DNA from: Candidatus Altiarchaeota archaeon | Lineage (GTDB): Archaea; Altiarchaeota; Altiarchaeia; IMC4; SCGC-AAA252-I15 | Reading direction: 5' to 3' | Assembly: GCA_028712125.1 (NCBI GenBank) | Contig: JAQTQS010000024.1 | Location: forward strand, 1 to 20,035 | DNA: 20,035 nucleotides | Shown here: in pieces, positions 358 to 14,446 of the stretch | Layout: every line of letters starts with the position of its first letter | Numbering within the stretch: the stretch's first letter is position 1 | Translations under genes and position numbers: made by a program | The notes under the pieces: model-generated | Databases searched by the model: none | What the model saw: the letters and a program-made list of their open reading frames with translations, nothing else | Told to the model about the DNA's origin: nothing

Positions 358-600
358 ATGGTGACGTATATAATCGCACGACAATTGGGCGGCAAGCCCG
401 TTATTACAGTGGGCGGCGAGGAACTTGGAAGACTGGATGATGTCATCGTTGACGAACACACGGGTCGTTTCCTTTCAATCGTGGTTGAGCCGCTTGCAAA
501 CGTCACCCTTTCTGTGAGTTACCCAAAAGACAAGGACGGCAACCTTCTGATACCCTACGACGCGGTGAACGCTGTCAGCAAGGTCATTGTAGTCAAATAA
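358..600 (+). CDS. PRC-barrel domain protein (small standalone archaeal type, 80 aa)
   Basis: Complete ORF. The pattern QLGGKPVITVGGEELGRLDDVIVDEHTGRF...LLIPYDAVNAVSKVIVV is typical of the PRC barrel (PF05239-like: GxxV....GxxlGxVxDv.vD...g....v....ip...V..v....i.v). An AT-rich TATA-like stretch (tatatcatagggaatatctatatta, about 305-330) lies upstream. Confidence 0.6.
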   Translation: MVTYIIARQLGGKPVITVGGEELGRLDDVIVDEHTGRFLSIVVEPLANVTLSVSYPKDKDGNLLIPYDAVNAVSKVIVVK

Positions 601-678
601 TCCTTTGACTGTTTTAAAGGATGCTTCTTGCGCATTGCGTGACTTATTGTAAAAAATAATTCATGCCGTATTAGCCGT

Positions 679-1077
679 TTAATTTGCTTCTATTATCTTT
701 ACAATAAGGCCCCTTGAGGAGGACAGGCTTGCATTGTTCTGGGATAGGAAATTGTAGACGTCCATATTGCTTGACTTGAAGAATAGAATCAGTGCGGTAT
801 CTGAATTGGACAGTATGTGGAAGGATATGCCGTATCCAAGCATCTCCAGATAAGCCCGCTCCGGGTGGAATACGCTGGACCCGGAGATGATGTTCAGCAA
901 CCCATCGACAGCCCGCTCGACAGGCTCCCAGGAAGCCATCATGTCTACCTTGAAGGACTCAGGGAACATAACGACGCCCTCAAGCCCTTTTTTTGCCACC
1001 ATGCATGCGCAGATTTCAGGATGGCGTTCTTTAAGGTCCTTGAGGACGGCGGTTATTTCGTCGTACTTGGAGGCCAT
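679..1077 (-). CDS. Roadblock/LC7 (MglB-like) domain protein, 132 aa
   Basis: Complete ORF. Its size and pattern (MASKYDEITAVLKDLKERHPEICACMVAKKGLEGVVMF...) are consistent with the Robl_LC7 fold. Its start codon lies 1 nt after the TGA of the upstream KaiC-like gene (mRNA reads TGA A ATG), indicating translational coupling. Confidence 0.55.
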   Translation of the reverse strand: MASKYDEITAVLKDLKERHPEICACMVAKKGLEGVVMFPESFKVDMMASWEPVERAVDGLLNIISGSSVFHPERAYLEMLGYGISFHILSNSDTALILFFKSSNMDVYNFLSQNNASLSSSRGLIVKIIEAN

Positions 1078-1078
1078 T

Positions 1079-1822
1079 TCACTCCACTATTATGCCGTCT
1101 TTGGTGAACTTCATCGGGGAAAGCGTTATCTGCACCTCTGTGCCGCGCATCTTCCTTACCGAGAGAAGCCGCTCGATTTCGCCTCCGAGCTCGCTCGTCC
1201 GCAGGAGTATAACGCCGTCGCATGCGAACTCGCTGATTGTGTCGCGAGAGAGGTATTCGCTTTTTTCAGCGACTTCGGAAATCAGCAGCGAGGTGGTGTT
1301 GAGCTTGTTGATTTCCTTCACTACGAAGTATATGTCCTTGCGGGTGATGTTATGCCCTTCCTCCGGGAACTTGAAAACGCGCTTCTCCCCTGATACCGCG
1401 CTCATCTCCTTGGATATGCGGGAGTGGTATACGACGCCGTGCTCGAGCATCACTGTCAGGGAGTCGATGACCAGCCGCCTGGCTTTTAATTTCCTGACTT
1501 TTTCCTTGATGGATTCGAGCACGTCCTCCATGTCGAACGTCTCGACGACGTACACTTCAAGCAGCCCTTCGCGTTCTAGCTTCTCCAGGTCCCAGCCGAA
1601 CTCGCATGCCTGGCTTAGGATTTTGTCGCGCGATTCCTCGAACGTCACGTAAAGGCCCGGCTCCCTTGCCACAGCCCCCTGGTGGAGGAACTGGAGGGAT
1701 AGGATTGTCTTGCCGGTCCCGCATGAGCCTGTCAGCAGCACGCTGTGGTTCCGCGGGATGCCCCCGCCTATGAGTTTGTCGAGTCCTTTTATCCCGGTAG
1801 TCGCGCGGTCCATGTTCTGCAC
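1079..1822 (-). CDS. KaiC-like / RadA-like single-domain RecA-superfamily ATPase (archaeal KaiC homolog), 247 aa
   Basis: The N-terminal GIKGLDKLIGGGIPRNHSVLLTGSCGTGKTILSLQF carries a Walker A motif (GSCGTGKT). A hhhhD Walker B follows (RRLVIDSLT). Together these are the canonical KaiC/RecA-like signature. A GGTG Shine-Dalgarno-like element sits 8 nt upstream of the ATG on the mRNA strand. Confidence 0.85.
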   Translation of the reverse strand: MQNMDRATTGIKGLDKLIGGGIPRNHSVLLTGSCGTGKTILSLQFLHQGAVAREPGLYVTFEESRDKILSQACEFGWDLEKLEREGLLEVYVVETFDMEDVLESIKEKVRKLKARRLVIDSLTVMLEHGVVYHSRISKEMSAVSGEKRVFKFPEEGHNITRKDIYFVVKEINKLNTTSLLISEVAEKSEYLSRDTISEFACDGVILLRTSELGGEIERLLSVRKMRGTEVQITLSPMKFTKDGIIVE

Positions 1823-1879
1823 CTATTTTAATGTAGCAGTAAATTATTAACGTCATATACTTAAACTAAACATTGTGCT

Positions 1880-2611
1880 ATGGATTCTTCGTTGATGCGG
1901 TCTTGGGCGGGGATGGCTATTATGTCAGTTTTTTTACTTTGCGCTCTTAGTGCCTTTGCTTGCGCCTCGCAGAAGGCATTTATAGAGGGTTCGGTTACGG
2001 ATACGGCGACCGGCAAGCCTTTTATGAACGTCTCGCTTGACGTGTTCGTCGCTTCCGACCCTTCCAATCCATACGCCACGGTTAGGACTGACGAGAGGGG
2101 GCGCTATAATATCAGCGTTGACGACGGGAATTATGAGATTTACGTGCGCGTCGGCGCGACAAACCCGCGGCAGTCGGTGTATGTACACGCAGGGGAGATT
2201 CAGCAGTTGAACTTCAAGATTAGCATGAAGTCTATTAGCGAGGAGCAGCTTTCCAGCAACTGGATGTTCTGGGTGCAGGTCGGGATTGCTGCGCTCATTA
2301 TAGGAATCATCGCGGTTGACCAATTGTTCTTCAAGCGAAAGCGCGTGCTCAGCGACCTTGCCGCGGAGCGTGGCAGGCTTGAGGCCGAGCTGAAGAAGGG
2401 CGAGGAGGGCGGGCAGGATGATTTGGGGAAATTGCGCAAGGACCGCAGCCAGCTGGAGTACATGATTAACCTGACGAGGACGAAGTATCACCAGAGGAGC
2501 ATTAATGAGGAGAGTTTCAGGGAGATTATCCGGGATTATCAGGAGAAGCTGATTGAGGTGGAGGCCCGTATTGCCGCGCTTGAGGCCGAGAAGAAGGATG
2601 TCGTGAAGTAG
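1880..2611 (+). CDS. Membrane protein with signal peptide, carboxypeptidase-regulatory-like (CarbopepD_reg/Ig-like beta-sandwich) extracytoplasmic domain, one TM helix and a cytoplasmic coiled-coil tail
   Basis: The N-terminus (MRSWAGMAIMSVFLLCALSAFACAS) is signal-peptide like. GSVTDTATGKPFMNVSLDVF...RTDERGRYNISVDDGNYEIYVRV matches the CarbopepD_reg_2 consensus (GxVxD..tGxPl..a.V........tD..G.Y.f..l..G.Y.l). The hydrophobic stretch WMFWVQVGIAALIIGIIAV is followed by KRKR and then an E/K/R/L-rich heptad-like segment (RLEAELKKGEE...LIEVEARIAALEAEKK). A TATA-like tcatatactt lies about 25 bp upstream. A T-rich terminator follows the stop. Confidence 0.7.
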   Translation: MDSSLMRSWAGMAIMSVFLLCALSAFACASQKAFIEGSVTDTATGKPFMNVSLDVFVASDPSNPYATVRTDERGRYNISVDDGNYEIYVRVGATNPRQSVYVHAGEIQQLNFKISMKSISEEQLSSNWMFWVQVGIAALIIGIIAVDQLFFKRKRVLSDLAAERGRLEAELKKGEEGGQDDLGKLRKDRSQLEYMINLTRTKYHQRSINEESFREIIRDYQEKLIEVEARIAALEAEKKDVVK

Positions 2612-2722: not shown

Positions 2723-3970
2723 ATGAAACCAATCGTCCTTTGCATTGACCGGGATGACGACATCGGCAGGAAAACAAAGACCGCCGGGCCCATCATCGGA
2801 ATTGAGAAGAACATCGAGGTAGCAAAGGCTCTCGCGCTCGCGGACCCCGAGGACACCGACTTGAATGCGATATTCGGGGCGGTGAAGATTGCCAAGGACC
2901 TTGGCACCGAAGTGGTCACGCTCACGGGGGACTTTAAGGTCGGCATCATATCAGACGCAAAGCTGGTAAAGCAGCTGGAGGAGGTCATAAAGAAGCTGAA
3001 CCCCTCCTCGGTTATAATGGTTTCCGACGGCGCCGAGGACGAGCAGATAATCCCTATAATCCAGTCGAGGATTCCAATCGACTCAGTCCAGACGATAATC
3101 GTCCGGCAGAGCAAGGAGCTGGAAAAGGCCTATTTCAAAATCATCCACTTCTTTCGGGAGATTTCAAAACACCCGGACGTGGCCCGTATGCTGTTCGGCC
3201 TGCCGGGGCTTGTGATGGTCATGCTTGCGATAGGGGGCATGCAGGCTTTGAGCCTCATCATGGGCGTGGTCGGAGCCTACCTGATTCTGCGCGGCCTGGG
3301 CTGGGAGGAGGAGTTCTTCAACAGGGTCATGGGTTTCGTCAAGTCGCTTTCGTCCGAGAGGGTCAGCACGCTGATATACCTGATAGGAATCGTCATGGGA
3401 CTGTTCGGGGCCATGACCTTTACGAACGACCTCGACAGAGGCTCGCTTACGGTCCGGGAGCTTGTTTCATCCGCCGACCGTCTTGCGTCCTTCATACTCA
3501 GCTCGTCCTCCATAGACCTGTTCGCGCTGGCGCTAATCACGTTCATGGTGGGCCGCATCATAGACCATTACGCGGACAAGGACTACCTGAAGATTATGAA
3601 GTACCTGCGTCTTATCGCGCTGGTCGTGCTCATAATGGTCGTCCTTCAGTCCGGTGCGAGCTTCATGGAGGACCCGGCATCTTACGGCCTCACGACCTTC
3701 ATTTCAAACATGATAGCGGGCGTCATCTCGTTCGTCGTGTGGATTAAGCTGACGGAGTACTGGTTCATCAACGAGATAAACGTCATGAAGACGATCATCA
3801 GGGACCTTCTCGGCAAGGAGGTCGTCGGGAGCGATGAAAAGCGCCTTGGGAAGGTCTCGAAAGTCCTGCTTTCAGGTCTTGAGCTCAGGGCTTTGAAGAT
3901 AGGACGGCGTGTTATCGCAAGAAAGGACATAATATCAACGGGCGAAGTCATCAGGGTAAACGCGAAGTAA
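2723..3970 (+). CDS. DUF373-family archaeal integral membrane protein (415 aa) with a C-terminal PRC-barrel-like segment
   Basis: The N-terminal soluble domain (MKPIVLCIDRDDDIGRKT...VTLTGDFKVGIISDAKL...VIMVSDGAEDEQIIPII) is followed by 6 or more hydrophobic helices, as in DUF373 proteins of methanogens. The C-terminal LLGKEVVGSDEKRLGKVSKVLLSGLELRALKIGRRVIARKDIISTGEVIRV resembles a PRC barrel. A TATA-like ggtatataata lies about 30 bp upstream. Confidence 0.6.
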   Translation: MKPIVLCIDRDDDIGRKTKTAGPIIGIEKNIEVAKALALADPEDTDLNAIFGAVKIAKDLGTEVVTLTGDFKVGIISDAKLVKQLEEVIKKLNPSSVIMVSDGAEDEQIIPIIQSRIPIDSVQTIIVRQSKELEKAYFKIIHFFREISKHPDVARMLFGLPGLVMVMLAIGGMQALSLIMGVVGAYLILRGLGWEEEFFNRVMGFVKSLSSERVSTLIYLIGIVMGLFGAMTFTNDLDRGSLTVRELVSSADRLASFILSSSSIDLFALALITFMVGRIIDHYADKDYLKIMKYLRLIALVVLIMVVLQSGASFMEDPASYGLTTFISNMIAGVISFVVWIKLTEYWFINEINVMKTIIRDLLGKEVVGSDEKRLGKVSKVLLSGLELRALKIGRRVIARKDIISTGEVIRVNAK

Positions 3971-8812: not shown

Positions 8813-9613
8813 ATGGCAGTCGAAGACGTTTGCGGGACGATTTTCTCCCTTGTGTTCATGATAATCCCGCTGATGGTCTTTTTCATACCCGGCCTGCTTT
8901 TCGTCCTCGGCATCCTTGGGACTTTCATAAAGGTCATAGCCCAGTACGAGCGCGGCATACTCTTCGCCTTCGGTCGTTTCGTGGACGTGCGAAAACCGGG
9001 CCTGAACATCATCATACCGTTCTACAACCGGATGGAAATCATCGACATGCGGATTAACACGCTCGACGTCCCGAAGCAGGAGGTCATGACCAAGGACAGC
9101 GTGCCGGTGAAAATAAACGCGGTGATATACTTCAGGGTGAAAGACCCGAAGAGAGCACTCCGGAACGTCGAGAACTACATGTACGCGGTCGCCAAATACG
9201 GGCAGACGGCGCTGCGAAACGTGGCGGGCGATGCGACACTGGACGCGCTCCTGAGCGAAAGAAAGGAGATAGCCGAAAAGCTTCGCCAGATAGTCGACGT
9301 CGCGACCGAACCTTGGGGGATAGACGTCACATACCTCGAGCTGCAGGACATAGAGCTTCCGGAAAGCCTCAAGCGCACGATGGCCAAGCAGGCCGAGGCC
9401 GAGCGGGAGAAGAGGTCAGTCATAATCGCCTCCGAGGGCGAGGTCATAGCCTCAGACAACCTTGTGAAAGCCGCGAACATCCTCTACAACGTGAAGGGCG
9501 CGCTGCACCTCCGGACGCTTAACGCCCTCAACGACATCAGCTCTGACGAGACCAACAAGGTCGTGTTCGTAGTCCCCTTGGAAGTATTGCGGGCGCTGGA
9601 GGAGGTGGACTAA
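8813..9613 (+). CDS. Stomatin-family SPFH/band-7 protein, membrane-anchored (266 aa)
   Basis: The N-terminal hydrophobic helix (IFSLVFMIIPLMVFFIPGLLFVLGILGTFI) is followed by the stomatin core IAQYERGILFAFGRF...PKQEVMTKDSVPVKINAVIYFRV...AKYGQTALRNV...LLSERKEIAEKLRQ...ELQDIELPESLKRTMAKQAEAEREKR...GALHLRTLNAL. Confidence 0.88.
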   Translation: MAVEDVCGTIFSLVFMIIPLMVFFIPGLLFVLGILGTFIKVIAQYERGILFAFGRFVDVRKPGLNIIIPFYNRMEIIDMRINTLDVPKQEVMTKDSVPVKINAVIYFRVKDPKRALRNVENYMYAVAKYGQTALRNVAGDATLDALLSERKEIAEKLRQIVDVATEPWGIDVTYLELQDIELPESLKRTMAKQAEAEREKRSVIIASEGEVIASDNLVKAANILYNVKGALHLRTLNALNDISSDETNKVVFVVPLEVLRALEEVD

Positions 9614-9615
9614 AG

Positions 9616-10359
9616 ATGGGCCTTTCATTATTCAAAATAATCAACCAGTACGAGAGAGGAGTATTATTCGCCTTCGGGGAGTATGAAGGCATGCGCGAGC
9701 CCGGCTTCAATTTCCTCATACCGATTTACCACGACCTTGTCATCGTCGACACGCGCATCAAGACGGTGGACATCCCGAAACAGGAGGTCATGACAAGGGA
9801 CAACGTGCCGGTCATGATAAACGCGGTCGTCTACTTCAGGATAGAGCAGCCGGAAAAGGCAGTAATTGAAGTCCGCGACGTAATCTACGCGGTCTCGAAA
9901 TACGCCCAGACAAGCCTGCGCAACGTCACAGGCCAGGCAACCCTTGACGAGCTATTGTCGGCCCGCCAGAAAATCGCAGAAAAACTCAGGGAGATAGTTG
10001 ACGTCGTAACACAGCAGTGGGGCGTGGACGTCACGGCCATCGAACTCCAGGACATCGAACTGCCTGAAGACCTGAAGAGGACGATGGCCAAACAGGCCGA
10101 GGCCGAGCGGGAGAAGCGTGCGGTAATCCTCAACAGCGAGGGAGAGGTCGGCGCTGCCGAGAACATTGCGAAGGCCGCCAAGAAATTGTACGCGGCCCCG
10201 GGAGCGCTGCACCTGCGGACTTTGCACACTATCAATGACATAAGCTCTGACAAATCGCAGACGGTGATTTACGCACTGCCGATAGAGGTTCTCAGGGCTG
10301 TTGAACGGCTGGTAGACCTGCTGGAGATAAAGACAGGGCAAAGGCAGACTAAAAAGTAG
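9616..10359 (+). CDS. Stomatin-family SPFH/band-7 paralog lacking an N-terminal TM helix (247 aa)
   Basis: It starts 2 nt after the stop of the first stomatin. It has the same domain order (NQYERGVLFAFGEY...PKQEVMTRDNVPVMINAVVYFRI...ELQDIELPEDLKRTMAKQAEAEREKR...GALHLRTL). There is no hydrophobic segment before the SPFH core. A 36-nt stretch (10081..10116) is identical to 9378..9413 at 35 of 36 positions. Confidence 0.88.
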   Translation: MGLSLFKIINQYERGVLFAFGEYEGMREPGFNFLIPIYHDLVIVDTRIKTVDIPKQEVMTRDNVPVMINAVVYFRIEQPEKAVIEVRDVIYAVSKYAQTSLRNVTGQATLDELLSARQKIAEKLREIVDVVTQQWGVDVTAIELQDIELPEDLKRTMAKQAEAEREKRAVILNSEGEVGAAENIAKAAKKLYAAPGALHLRTLHTINDISSDKSQTVIYALPIEVLRAVERLVDLLEIKTGQRQTKK

Positions 10360-13603: not shown

Positions 13604-14446
13604 CTACGGTTCGGTGCTTGTTTCCTCGTTTGCATACGTGGAAATGTCGAACAGCATGTTGCTTCCCCCGCCGTTGACCATCACCTTCGGCAGGTGGCCG
13701 TCCCATTTCTCGGCAATCGTCAGCGGAATCAGCTTCTCGTTCTGCTTCAATGCCTCGGCACGTATGGATATCGCCTCAGCTTCGGCCTTTGCACGGATTA
13801 CCGTCTGGTTGGCCTCGACCCTTATCCTCTCGAGGTCCCGGTCGGCCTTGAGCTTAAGCTGCTCGGCCGTGACCTTCGCCTCTATCGCGTCGTTGAAGGA
13901 CCTGCTGAACTGGAAGTTCGTGATTGACATCGTCTCCACGAGGATGTAGCGCGGGGCCAGCTTTTGGCTGATGGACTCCCTTATCTTCACGGCGACGTCA
14001 TCCCTCTTGGTTATCAGTTCTTCGGCCGTGAATTGCGCCGTGATTGCCTTCACGCTCTCCTTGATGGCGGGGTCTATGACAGTTAATTCATAGCCGGGGC
14101 CTATCTCCTGGAACACCCTCTGGGCGGCGTCGGGCGAGATGTGGTAGTTTAACGCGATTGCCGTGTTCACAATCTGCATGTCCTTCGAGCTTGCTTCGGT
14201 CGTGTCCTCCATCTTCTGCGTCTTGATGTTGATGATGACGACGGACTGCACCAGCGGCATCTTAACGTGTATCCCCTCGGTGTAGGAGTACTGCGCGACT
14301 TCGCCGAACGTCATCAAAACGCCCCTCTCCCCGGGGCCGACGATGAAGTAACAGTTCCTCAACAGGGTTACGAATATTACCGCGGCTATTAATCCTATCA
14401 ATAGTCTTAATGCCGGGCTCATTGGTTCGTCAAATTTTGCTGTCAT
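13604..14446 (-). CDS. Prohibitin/HflC-like SPFH (band 7) membrane protein, 280 aa
   Basis: An N-terminal TM helix (LRLLIGLIAAVIFVTLL) is followed by an SPFH core (FIVGPGERGVLMTFGEV...IKTQKMEDTTEASSKDMQIV...AQFTAEELITKRDDV) and a C-terminal coiled coil (AEQLKLKADRDLERIRVEANQTVIRAKAEAEAISIRAEALKQNEK). Confidence 0.8.
   Translation of the reverse strand: MTAKFDEPMSPALRLLIGLIAAVIFVTLLRNCYFIVGPGERGVLMTFGEVAQYSYTEGIHVKMPLVQSVVIINIKTQKMEDTTEASSKDMQIVNTAIALNYHISPDAAQRVFQEIGPGYELTVIDPAIKESVKAITAQFTAEELITKRDDVAVKIRESISQKLAPRYILVETMSITNFQFSRSFNDAIEAKVTAEQLKLKADRDLERIRVEANQTVIRAKAEAEAISIRAEALKQNEKLIPLTIAEKWDGHLPKVMVNGGGSNMLFDISTYANEETSTEP

What the first reader, a model, noticed from the sequence alone, without database searches (positions are those of the whole stretch)
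679..2611. A KaiC-like ATPase and roadblock/LC7 coupled operon sits divergent from a sensor-like membrane protein with an extracytoplasmic beta-sandwich and a cytoplasmic coiled coil
A single-domain KaiC/RecA-like ATPase (1079..1822) is translationally coupled to a roadblock/LC7 protein (679..1077). The mRNA reads stop TGA, one A, then ATG. Roadblock proteins normally partner small Ras-like GTPases (MglA/Arf-like), so a pairing with a KaiC-like P-loop ATPase is unusual. A gene for a signal-peptide membrane protein (1880..2611) lies 58 bp away and is divergently transcribed. That protein has a carboxypeptidase-regulatory-like Ig beta-sandwich outside, one TM helix, and an 80-residue coiled coil inside. 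The three genes together look like an uncharacterised archaeal signal-transduction module of sensor, ATPase hub and roadblock adaptor.
Basis: partly seen in the sequence, partly recalled or inferred. Interest (0 to 1): 0.7.

Follow-up and report, generated by a model that had tools for sequence, protein, structure and literature searches.

The report
KaiC-like ATPase with roadblock-fold partner
In an uncultured archaeon (Altiarchaeota), a small unannotated protein with the "roadblock" fold, a fold otherwise known as a partner of Ras-like GTPases, is encoded as the tightly coupled, evolutionarily conserved partner of a KaiC-type ATPase, and the pair sits beside different sensor-type genes in different loci, which suggests an undescribed signalling module.

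Summary
All three ORFs exist, and the KaiC-like gene and the 132-aa gene are joined by TGA-A-ATG. KaiC is more likely to start at ATG 1813 than at GTG 1822.

It founds an unannotated family found mainly in Altiarchaeota. A KaiC-like gene lies immediately upstream on the same strand in 10 of 10 close clusters and 27 of 38 distant clusters that could be assessed, down to about 23% identity. The pairing is therefore real.

The ATPase keeps its catalytic motifs but resembles the KaiC CI domain and lacks the S431/T432 phosphosites.

The link to the membrane gene is weaker. It is adjacent in the close clade and in one rearranged locus, and absent in four others. However, its highly conserved C-terminal tail recurs on 7TM-DUF835 proteins next to a distant pair. 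Other paralogous pairs carry FIST, wHTH or V4R partners instead.

Verdict: a new variant of the proposed archaeal KaiC-hub signalling, with the mechanism inferred rather than shown.

The parts
1079..1822 (-). Single-domain KaiC-like (RecA-superfamily) ATPase. The ORF starts at GTG 1822, but the likely real start is ATG 1813 (244 aa).
   Evidence: - Pfam KaiC PF06745: 189.8 bits.
- Best PDB sequence matches are KaiC, E 4e-59.
- Motifs read from the sequence: Walker A GSCGTGKT, catalytic Glu pair in VTFEES, Walker B RRLVIDS, and KMRGT aligned to the KaiC LKLRGT segment.
- The C-terminal half aligns best to KaiC CI (residues 161-244). It has Glu-Phe at the positions of S431/T432.
- A roughly 24-residue insertion follows Walker B.
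- The protein falls below every NCBIfam equivalog cut-off.
679..1077 (-). 132-aa protein with a roadblock/LC7-type fold, belonging to an unannotated family. Translationally coupled to the KaiC-like gene.
   Evidence: - No Pfam, NCBIfam or PDB sequence hit.
- AF2 model: pLDDT 85.8, topology a-b-b-a-b-b-b-a.
- Foldseek: the top 50 hits are all roadblock-fold proteins.
- A KaiC gene is adjacent upstream in 10/10 close and 27/38 distant non-redundant clusters.
1078..1081 (-). Coupling junction: KaiC stop TGA (1081..1079), one A (1078), then the ATG of the 132-aa gene at 1077.
   Evidence: Read directly. In related loci where the two genes are adjacent, the gap between them ranges from -26 to +80 nt, and in the close clade from -11 to +2 nt.
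1814..1879 (.). AT-rich divergent intergenic region between the KaiC-like gene and the membrane gene. Contains TATA-like elements (TTAATAATTT, TATACTTAAA) and is presumed to hold back-to-back promoters.
   Evidence: Sequence read. The promoter assignment is an inference from typical archaeal TATA spacing and was not tested.
1880..2611 (+). Single-pass membrane protein: signal-like N-terminus, CarboxypepD_reg beta-sandwich ectodomain, TM helix at about 127-151, and a helical cytoplasmic tail carrying the conserved motif KYHQRSINEESFREIIRDYQEKLIEVEA.
   Evidence: - Pfam PF13620: 39.9 bits over residues 35-114.
- Hydropathy profile and regional identity.
- AF2 predicts helices 121-204 and 210-242.
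- The tail is 86-90% identical among the full-length close-clade orthologues (L001, L003, L004), against 44-65% for the ectodomain.
- The tail matches the C-termini of two 7TM-DUF835 proteins in L012 (E 2e-10 and 4e-9).
640..678 (-). Region downstream of the 132-aa stop, with an oligo-T run (TTTTTT) that is the likely end of the two-gene transcript. The convergent PRC-barrel gene ends at 600.
   Evidence: Sequence read. The terminator role is inferred.

Best explanation
Genes 1079..1822 and 679..1077 form a two-gene operon. It encodes a catalytically competent, CI-like, single-domain KaiC-family ATPase and a dedicated small partner with a roadblock fold.

**Proposed mechanism (inferred).**
- The roadblock-fold protein, probably a dimer as in other members of the fold, binds the KaiC-like ring depending on its nucleotide state.
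- It either tunes ATP turnover, as MglB or Ragulator roadblock proteins do for GTPases, or reads the ATPase state and passes it on, as KaiB does on the KaiC CI ring.
- Input or output comes from a variable third component. In this window and its closest relatives that component is the single-pass membrane protein, which has a variable CarboxypepD_reg ectodomain and a strongly conserved cytoplasmic helical tail.
- In paralogous pairs in other Altiarchaeota loci the third component is a 7TM-DUF835 (inactivated KaiC) protein with the same tail, a FIST sensor protein, a wHTH regulator or a V4R protein.

**Shown:** the gene structures, the fold, intact ATPase motifs, absence of the canonical phosphosites, and conserved adjacency.

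**Inferred:** physical binding, the direction of signal flow, and participation of the membrane protein.
For: - **Coupling.** The junction is TGA-A-ATG.
- **Conserved pairing.** KaiC lies immediately upstream on the same strand in every close-clade locus (12 including the window; L009 shown by BLAST). After collapsing at 90% identity it is adjacent in 10/10 close and 27/38 distant assessable clusters, with 4 more within 2 kb. Flanking genes differ completely between these loci. Identity of the small protein to the window copy falls to about 23%.
- **ATPase.** Catalytic motifs are intact and the domain is CI-like.
- **Third partners are signalling-type proteins.** FIST is immediately downstream in 21/36 distant clusters, often overlapping by 4-8 nt. 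Others are wHTH (L021, L022), V4R (L056) and 7TM-DUF835 (L012).
- **Membrane-gene link.** The gene stays adjacent in two different arrangements, divergent in L001-L006 and convergent in L007. Its tail is shared with the L012 7TM-DUF835 proteins and is more conserved than the ectodomain.
- **Literature.** DUF835 is classed as an inactivated KaiC domain, and KaiC-like ATPases are proposed as archaeal signalling hubs (PMC5847659).
Against: - No interaction was tested.
- 7 of 38 distant clusters have no KaiC within 2 kb upstream, and some have only a FIST neighbour. The small protein is therefore not strictly tied to an adjacent KaiC.
- The membrane gene is absent beside the pair in L008-L011.
- The tail motif also occurs without any KaiC/roadblock neighbour (L092).
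- Nearly all named sequences come from one phylum, so part of the conservation reflects paralogy within a lineage.
Confidence: 0.55

Rival explanations
1. The 132-aa protein is a small-ligand sensor domain of the GAF/PAS/profilin-like class rather than an NTPase-binding roadblock protein. On this view it senses a metabolite and passes the signal to KaiC.
For: - No member of the family matches Robl_LC7 at sequence level.
- The most conserved residues (GLEG, FPxxF, WEP) cluster in loops and at the start of helix 2. That region could form a pocket.
Against: - Size (120-135 aa) and the a-b-b-a-b-b-b-a order match MglB, including the C-terminal helix. GAF domains are larger, according to my own background knowledge.
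- The weak sub-threshold sequence hits are themselves to roadblock-fold proteins: Asgard Roadblock3 9jue over its full length at E 0.73, MglB at E about 1, SLM4 at E 0.24, and MAPKK1_Int at E 0.058.
Confidence: 0.12
2. The pair acts in DNA repair or recombination rather than signalling. The KaiC-like protein would be a RadA paralogue (like Sulfolobus aRadC/SSO2452 or RadB) and the small protein its mediator.
For: - The ATPase has weaker matches to RadA/Sms, RadB, RecA and DnaB_C models.
- SSO2452 is among its PDB matches, E 1e-24.
- The window is otherwise a housekeeping neighbourhood.
Against: - KaiC models score far higher than Rad models (189.8 bits for Pfam KaiC against 46.5 bits or less for RadA/RadB).
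- Recurrent neighbours of the pair are sensor or regulator types: FIST, 7TM-DUF835, wHTH, V4R and a membrane protein with an ectodomain. None is a nuclease, helicase or other repair gene.
Confidence: 0.08
3. The KaiC/roadblock pair is a self-contained unit, and the divergent membrane gene is an unrelated neighbour kept only by local synteny. The shared tail would then be a general membrane-protein module, for example for oligomerisation.
For: - In L001-L006 the whole region is syntenic (DUF373, PRC, Taw1, HD), so adjacency there says little.
- The gene is absent from L008-L011.
- The tail occurs in small TM proteins, and in one locus with no pair nearby.
Against: - In L007 the membrane gene has moved to the other side of the pair yet remains directly adjacent, overlapping the 3' end by 4 nt.
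- The otherwise rare tail motif turns up on both 7TM-DUF835 genes immediately downstream of a pair that is only 24% identical.
- The tail is much more conserved than the ectodomain.
Confidence: 0.3

Closest known systems
MglB/MglA, and Ragulator-Rag (roadblock/LC7 proteins as regulators of small GTPases)
   Same: - The small protein has the same fold and size, including the C-terminal helix seen in MglB. MglB is the best structural match.
- It is encoded next to a P-loop NTPase.
   Different: - The partner is a RecA-superfamily KaiC-like ATPase, not a Ras-like GTPase.
- No GTPase is encoded in the window.
- There is no sequence match to Pfam Robl_LC7.
Proposed archaeal KaiC-like 'signal transduction hubs' (Makarova, Galperin and Koonin 2017, as cited in PMC5847659 and PMC4858521)
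   Same: - A single-domain KaiC-like ATPase is linked to variable sensor or adaptor genes, including DUF835 (inactivated KaiC) proteins.
- In that framework the second component varies and has been predicted to be KaiB-like or DEATH-like (PMC4858521).
   Different: - Here the dedicated second component is a roadblock-fold protein from an unannotated family.
- I found no description of that pairing in the searchable literature.
- The 2017 paper itself could not be read.
Cyanobacterial KaiC-KaiB
   Same: - The ATPase belongs to the KaiC family and resembles the CI domain.
- From my own background knowledge, CI is the ring that KaiB binds after ATP hydrolysis. A small partner reading the ATPase state is the analogy drawn here.
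   Different: - One domain instead of CI+CII.
- Glu-Phe replaces the S431/T432 phosphosites.
- No KaiA or KaiB is present in the window.
- The partner has a roadblock fold, not a thioredoxin-like fold.
- There is no evidence of oscillation.
Streptomyces conservons (CvnA membrane sensor kinase, CvnB roadblock/LC7, CvnC, CvnD GTPase); comparison drawn from my own knowledge
   Same: - The operon logic is similar: a membrane sensor-like protein, a roadblock-fold protein and a P-loop NTPase.
- The roadblock/LC7 structures from Streptomyces avermitilis are among the structural matches: 3leq is annotated cvnB5, and 3kye is annotated only as a Roadblock/LC7 domain.
   Different: - The NTPase is KaiC-like, not MglA-like.
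- There is no histidine-kinase-like domain and no DUF742 component.
- The lineage is archaeal.

Membership tests
Roadblock/LC7 (Pfam PF03259 Robl_LC7) | Sequence match to the family model | tested here: not met
   The window protein gives no hit, even at E<=1. 0 of 35 family members hit PF03259 at E<=10. The family profile against PDB gives only E 0.7-1.4 to Roadblock3 and MglB.
Roadblock/LC7 (Pfam PF03259 Robl_LC7) | alpha-beta-beta-alpha-beta-beta-beta sandwich fold of about 100-130 residues | tested here: met
Roadblock/LC7 (Pfam PF03259 Robl_LC7) | Homo- or heterodimer through the edge strand and helix 2 | not testable with these tools
   Only single-chain prediction was available.
Roadblock/LC7 (Pfam PF03259 Robl_LC7) | Partnership with a small Ras-like GTPase (MglA, Rag or Arf-like) | tested here: not met
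   No GTPase domain was found in any substantial ORF of the window. The conserved neighbour is KaiC-like.
KaiC family (Pfam PF06745) | Sequence match above the curated cut-off | tested here: met
   189.8 bits against a cut-off of 26.6.
KaiC family (Pfam PF06745) | Walker A, catalytic Glu pair, Walker B, Arg finger | tested here: met
   GSCGTGKT, VTFEES, RRLVIDS and KMRGT are aligned with the corresponding KaiC CI segments. One search confirms the C-terminal part against PDB chains.
Bona fide circadian KaiC (NCBIfam PRK09302 / TIGR02655) | Two tandem domains (CI+CII) and a score above the equivalog cut-off | tested here: not met
   The protein is a single domain of 244-247 aa. It scores 136.6 bits against a cut-off of 408, and 115 against 546.
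Bona fide circadian KaiC (NCBIfam PRK09302 / TIGR02655) | Ser431/Thr432 autophosphorylation sites | tested here: not met
   The equivalent positions are Glu-Phe, as in CI (alignment to 7s65_A residues 427-461).
Bona fide circadian KaiC (NCBIfam PRK09302 / TIGR02655) | KaiB (and KaiA) partner genes | tested here: not met
   No KaiA or KaiB family hit among the window ORFs scanned.
ArlH/FlaH archaellum ATPase | Score above the NCBIfam cut-off, and an archaellum gene context | tested here: not met
   52.8 bits against a cut-off of 215. The window has no archaellum or pilus genes.
CarboxypepD_reg domain (Pfam PF13620) | Sequence match above the cut-off | tested here: met
   39.9 bits against 32.3, residues 35-114. 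Orthologues carry the same annotation.
SHOCT-like short C-terminal module (resemblance of the tail motif, recalled from memory) | Match to the Pfam SHOCT model | tested here: not met
   The Pfam scan of the whole membrane protein at E<=1 lists no SHOCT hit.
Anti-phage defence systems (PADLOC) | Match to any defence-system model | tested here: not met
   None of the three proteins gives a hit.

The most novel reading that the evidence does not exclude
Roadblock-fold proteins are not restricted to GTPase regulation. In Altiarchaeota, and in at least one Micrarchaeota MAG, a divergent roadblock family has become the standard reader or regulator of RecA-type KaiC-like ATPases. Together they would form a multi-paralogue signalling system resembling two-component systems, in which the ATPase/roadblock core is combined with interchangeable sensors (ectodomain-TM-tail, 7TM-iKaiC-tail, FIST, V4R) and wHTH outputs.
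Probability: 0.4. Interest if true: 0.75.

Novelty: new variant of a known kind. Interest (0 to 1): 0.58.

Why it matters
- KaiC-like ATPases are abundant in archaea and have been proposed as signalling hubs, but their second components are mostly unknown (PMC4858521).
- A conserved, translationally coupled roadblock-fold partner provides a concrete two-protein system that can be expressed and tested.
- If confirmed, it would extend the old idea that roadblock/LC7 proteins regulate NTPases from Ras-like GTPases to RecA-type ATPases.
- It would annotate a family of about 40 database clusters that currently carry only 'hypothetical protein' or 'uncharacterised protein' labels, or no name at all.
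- It would also define a short cytoplasmic tail motif shared by otherwise unrelated membrane proteins.

Tried and rejected
- **Sequence searches with the 132-aa protein.** Pfam, NCBIfam, PDB phmmer and a 35-sequence profile against PDB gave nothing significant.
- **Foldseek against afdb50.** The library was not available.
- **Natural fusions.** The three long hits of the family profile (P0044, P0047, P0050) are spurious repeat proteins (FF/U-box, HEAT and ankyrin), so no Rosetta-stone fusion was found.
- **Literature.** The 2017 KaiC-hub paper is not held. Searches for KaiC with roadblock, LC7, MglB or FIST found no description of the pairing. The supplements of the T4P paper contain no arCOG02603 entries.
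- **Locus scans.** Two alignments were too diverse for the scan, so narrower ones were used.
- **The insertion after Walker B as a marker of roadblock-paired KaiCs.** Rejected, because many paired KaiCs lack it.
- **Defence-system reading.** Rejected, with no PADLOC hits.
- **Type IV pilus or archaellum context.** Rejected for this window, which is otherwise made of housekeeping genes.
Full report
**Source and gene structure.** The window is a contig of a Candidatus Altiarchaeota MAG. The 132-aa protein is identical to an NCBI entry named 'hypothetical protein PHG85_03795 [Candidatus Altiarchaeota archaeon]' on a 20,035-bp contig.

On the minus strand the junction reads GAG-TGA-A-ATG, so the KaiC-like stop and the start of the 132-aa gene are one base apart. 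Orthologues of the ATPase are 244-245 aa and start at the equivalent of ATG 1813. The GTG at 1822 is therefore probably not the real start. An oligo-T run follows the 132-aa stop, and the next gene, a PRC-barrel protein at 358..600, is convergent. The pair looks like a bicistronic unit.

The rest of the window is housekeeping: ValRS, MetRS, a class Ib aaRS, anthranilate phosphoribosyltransferase-like, DapB, RNase P p30, three SPFH proteins and DUF373. It contains no small GTPase, KaiB, pilus or archaellum genes.

**The ATPase.**
- Pfam KaiC scores 189.8 bits.
- PDB sequence matches are led by KaiC at E 4e-59, followed by the single-domain Pyrococcus proteins PH0284 and PH0186.
- Every NCBIfam equivalog cut-off (circadian KaiC, the archaeal KaiC subgroups, ArlH, RadA, RadB) is missed. 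This is a distinct single-domain subfamily.
- Walker A (GSCGTGKT), the catalytic Glu pair (VTFEES), Walker B (RRLVIDS) and the KMRGT segment are present.
- The C-terminal half aligns best to KaiC CI (residues 161-244). The positions equivalent to the CII phosphosites S431/T432 are Glu-Phe, as in CI.
- A roughly 24-residue insertion follows Walker B. It is shared by the close clade and by some distant relatives, but not all, so it is not a marker of the pairing.

**The 132-aa protein.**
- It has no hit in Pfam or NCBIfam at E<=1, and none in PDB sequences at E<=10.
- A word-indexed search found only eight relatives at 45-73% identity.
- An exhaustive profile search found 43 cluster representatives, 22 of them below 1e-10. 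Nearly all are stand-alone proteins, the complete ones 120-137 aa. The only hits above 400 aa are spurious repeat proteins.
- None of 35 members matches Robl_LC7.
- An AlphaFold2 model from the 9-sequence alignment has pLDDT 85.8 and pTM 0.83, with the order helix, two strands, helix, three strands, C-terminal helices.
- All of the top 50 Foldseek matches are roadblock-fold proteins.
- Weak sub-threshold sequence hits also point to roadblock-fold proteins: Roadblock3, MglB, SLM4 and MAPKK1_Int.

I conclude that the fold is roadblock-type, and that the family is not a sequence-level member of Pfam Robl_LC7.

**Is the pairing conserved?** Loci came from three sources:
- Exact-protein look-ups gave L001-L006, L012-L014, and L092-L093 for a tail-only protein.
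- A genome scan gave L007-L011.
- A metagenome scan with a distant subfamily gave 77 further loci, L015-L091.

I called ORFs and searched them with a family HMM, with the window KaiC-like protein, with a FIST protein and with a tail HMM. After collapsing at 90% identity, the results were:

| Group | KaiC-like gene immediately upstream, same strand | FIST gene immediately downstream |
|---|---|---|
| Close clade | 10 of 10 assessable clusters | 0 of 9 assessable clusters |
| Distant subfamily | 27 of 38 (4 more within 2 kb) | 21 of 36 |

- Gaps between the two genes range from -26 to +80 nt, and many are overlaps or 1-10 nt.
- Flanking genes differ entirely between loci. Upstream neighbours include a 1107-aa surface protein, TFIIE/HD genes, a P-type ATPase and RNase Z. 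The adjacency is therefore not residual synteny.
- Identity of the small protein to the window copy falls to about 23%, while the paired ATPase in L012 is still 48% identical.
- Named members come from Altiarchaeota or Altiarchaeales MAGs, plus one Micrarchaeota MAG and 'uncultured archaeon' records.
- Some Altiarchaeales contigs carry two pairs in tandem (L021, L022). The family is thus a lineage-enriched, paralogous expansion.

**Third components.** In the distant subfamily the gene after the small protein is most often a 420-460-aa FIST protein, frequently overlapping by 4-8 nt. Other neighbours are TrmB/MarR-like wHTH proteins lying between two pairs (L021, L022), a V4R protein (L056), and LuxE/LuxC-like enzymes after FIST in L025.

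In L012 the order is thioredoxin, KaiC-like, roadblock-like, then two proteins with a 7TM region, a DUF835 domain and a C-terminal tail. HisKA_7TM passes the threshold in one of them. DUF835 is listed as an inactivated KaiC domain in PMC5847659. These partners are sensor or regulator types, which fits a signalling role better than DNA repair.

**The membrane gene.**
- It has a hydrophobic N-terminus.
- The CarboxypepD_reg domain covers residues 35-114.
- The TM segment lies at about 127-151 and is followed by KRKR.
- The cytoplasmic part is predicted as helices 121-204 and 210-242 with high confidence (pLDDT above 90 for about 180-230).
- The ectodomain was poorly modelled from a single sequence.

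Adjacency:
- Orthologues (53-66% identity) sit divergently next to the pair in L001-L006, but there the whole region is syntenic.
- In L007 a 31%-identical orthologue lies on the other side, convergent and overlapping the small gene by 4 nt.
- It is absent next to the pair in L008-L011.

The tail:
- Residues 185-235 are 86-90% identical among the full-length close-clade orthologues (L001, L003, L004). The ectodomain is only 44-65% identical.
- The tail matches the C-termini of both L012 7TM-DUF835 proteins (E 2e-10 and 4e-9; shared core K[YF]Hx[RQ]xI[DN]EExFREI).
- A profile of the tail found only a few further proteins. These are short TM-plus-tail or tail-only proteins. The one examined (L092) has no KaiC or roadblock neighbour.

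The tail is therefore a rare, conserved module that appears beside the pair in three independent arrangements but is not exclusive to it. I rate the functional link of the membrane gene to the pair as more likely than not, but not established.

**Mechanism.**
- Shown: an operon encoding an apparently active, CI-like, single-domain KaiC ATPase and a roadblock-fold protein, with conserved coupling and variable sensor or regulator neighbours.
- Inferred: the roadblock-fold protein binds the ATPase ring and either modulates ATP turnover or reads its nucleotide state. This is analogous to MglB or Ragulator acting on GTPases and to KaiB acting on the KaiC CI ring (background knowledge). The membrane protein, through its conserved tail, would couple an extracytoplasmic cue to this core.
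- Signalling would rely on the ATPase cycle rather than on KaiC-type Ser/Thr phosphorylation, because the canonical phosphosites are absent.

**Comparison and novelty.** The closest frameworks are roadblock/LC7 proteins as NTPase regulators and the proposed archaeal KaiC-hub networks. In the latter, second components were predicted to be KaiB-like or DEATH-like and were unknown 'in most cases' (PMC4858521). Roadblock proteins (arCOG02603) and KaiC-like ATPases were each noted separately in archaeal type IV pilus loci. I found no description of a dedicated KaiC/roadblock pair. The key 2017 paper could not be read, so prior mention cannot be excluded. I class this as a new variant of a known kind, of moderate to good interest. 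Its main limits are the absence of any interaction evidence and the narrow phyletic range.

Noticed in passing
window 358..600 (+); L001-L006, L008, L009: An 80-aa PRC-barrel protein is convergent with the 132-aa gene. It is 79-92% identical across loci in which the roadblock-like protein is only about 42-58% identical. The nearby DUF373 membrane protein (2723..3970) also has a weak C-terminal PRC match.
   Followed up: partly
L006 about 974..1582 (-): The orthologue of the membrane protein has an in-frame stop inside the conserved tail motif (INE*SFREIIRDYQEKLIEVEAKIAALESEKKA), and the motif continues in frame after it. This could be a sequencing error, a pseudogene or recoding.
   Followed up: no
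L012 1..5061: The locus reads thioredoxin, KaiC-like, roadblock-like, then two tandem 7TM-DUF835 proteins that carry the same C-terminal tail as the window's membrane protein. Whether the thioredoxin-fold gene is KaiB-like was not examined.
   Followed up: partly
L018 and L026 (three KaiC-like genes in tandem before the roadblock-like gene); L021 and L022 (two KaiC/roadblock pairs separated by a wHTH gene): Some Altiarchaeales contigs carry tandem arrays of KaiC-like genes and duplicated pairs.
   Followed up: partly
L025 5403..9159: The FIST gene after the pair is followed by LuxE-like acyl-protein synthetase and LuxC-like acyl-CoA reductase genes. This is an unexpected metabolic neighbour for a signalling module.
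   Followed up: no
window 8813..9613, 9616..10359 (+) and 13604..14446 (-): The 20-kb window holds three SPFH/Band 7 paralogues, two of them adjacent and separated by 2 nt.
   Followed up: no
L010 6538..7674 (-): A 378-aa highly charged, helix-rich protein with no Pfam match is convergent with the pair in a locus that lacks the CarboxypepD_reg membrane gene. It does not match the tail HMM.
   Followed up: partly
L092 4374..5291 (+): A 96-aa tail-bearing protein begins inside a TM-like segment, 7 nt after a 206-aa gene. The two may be one split or frameshifted membrane protein.
   Followed up: no
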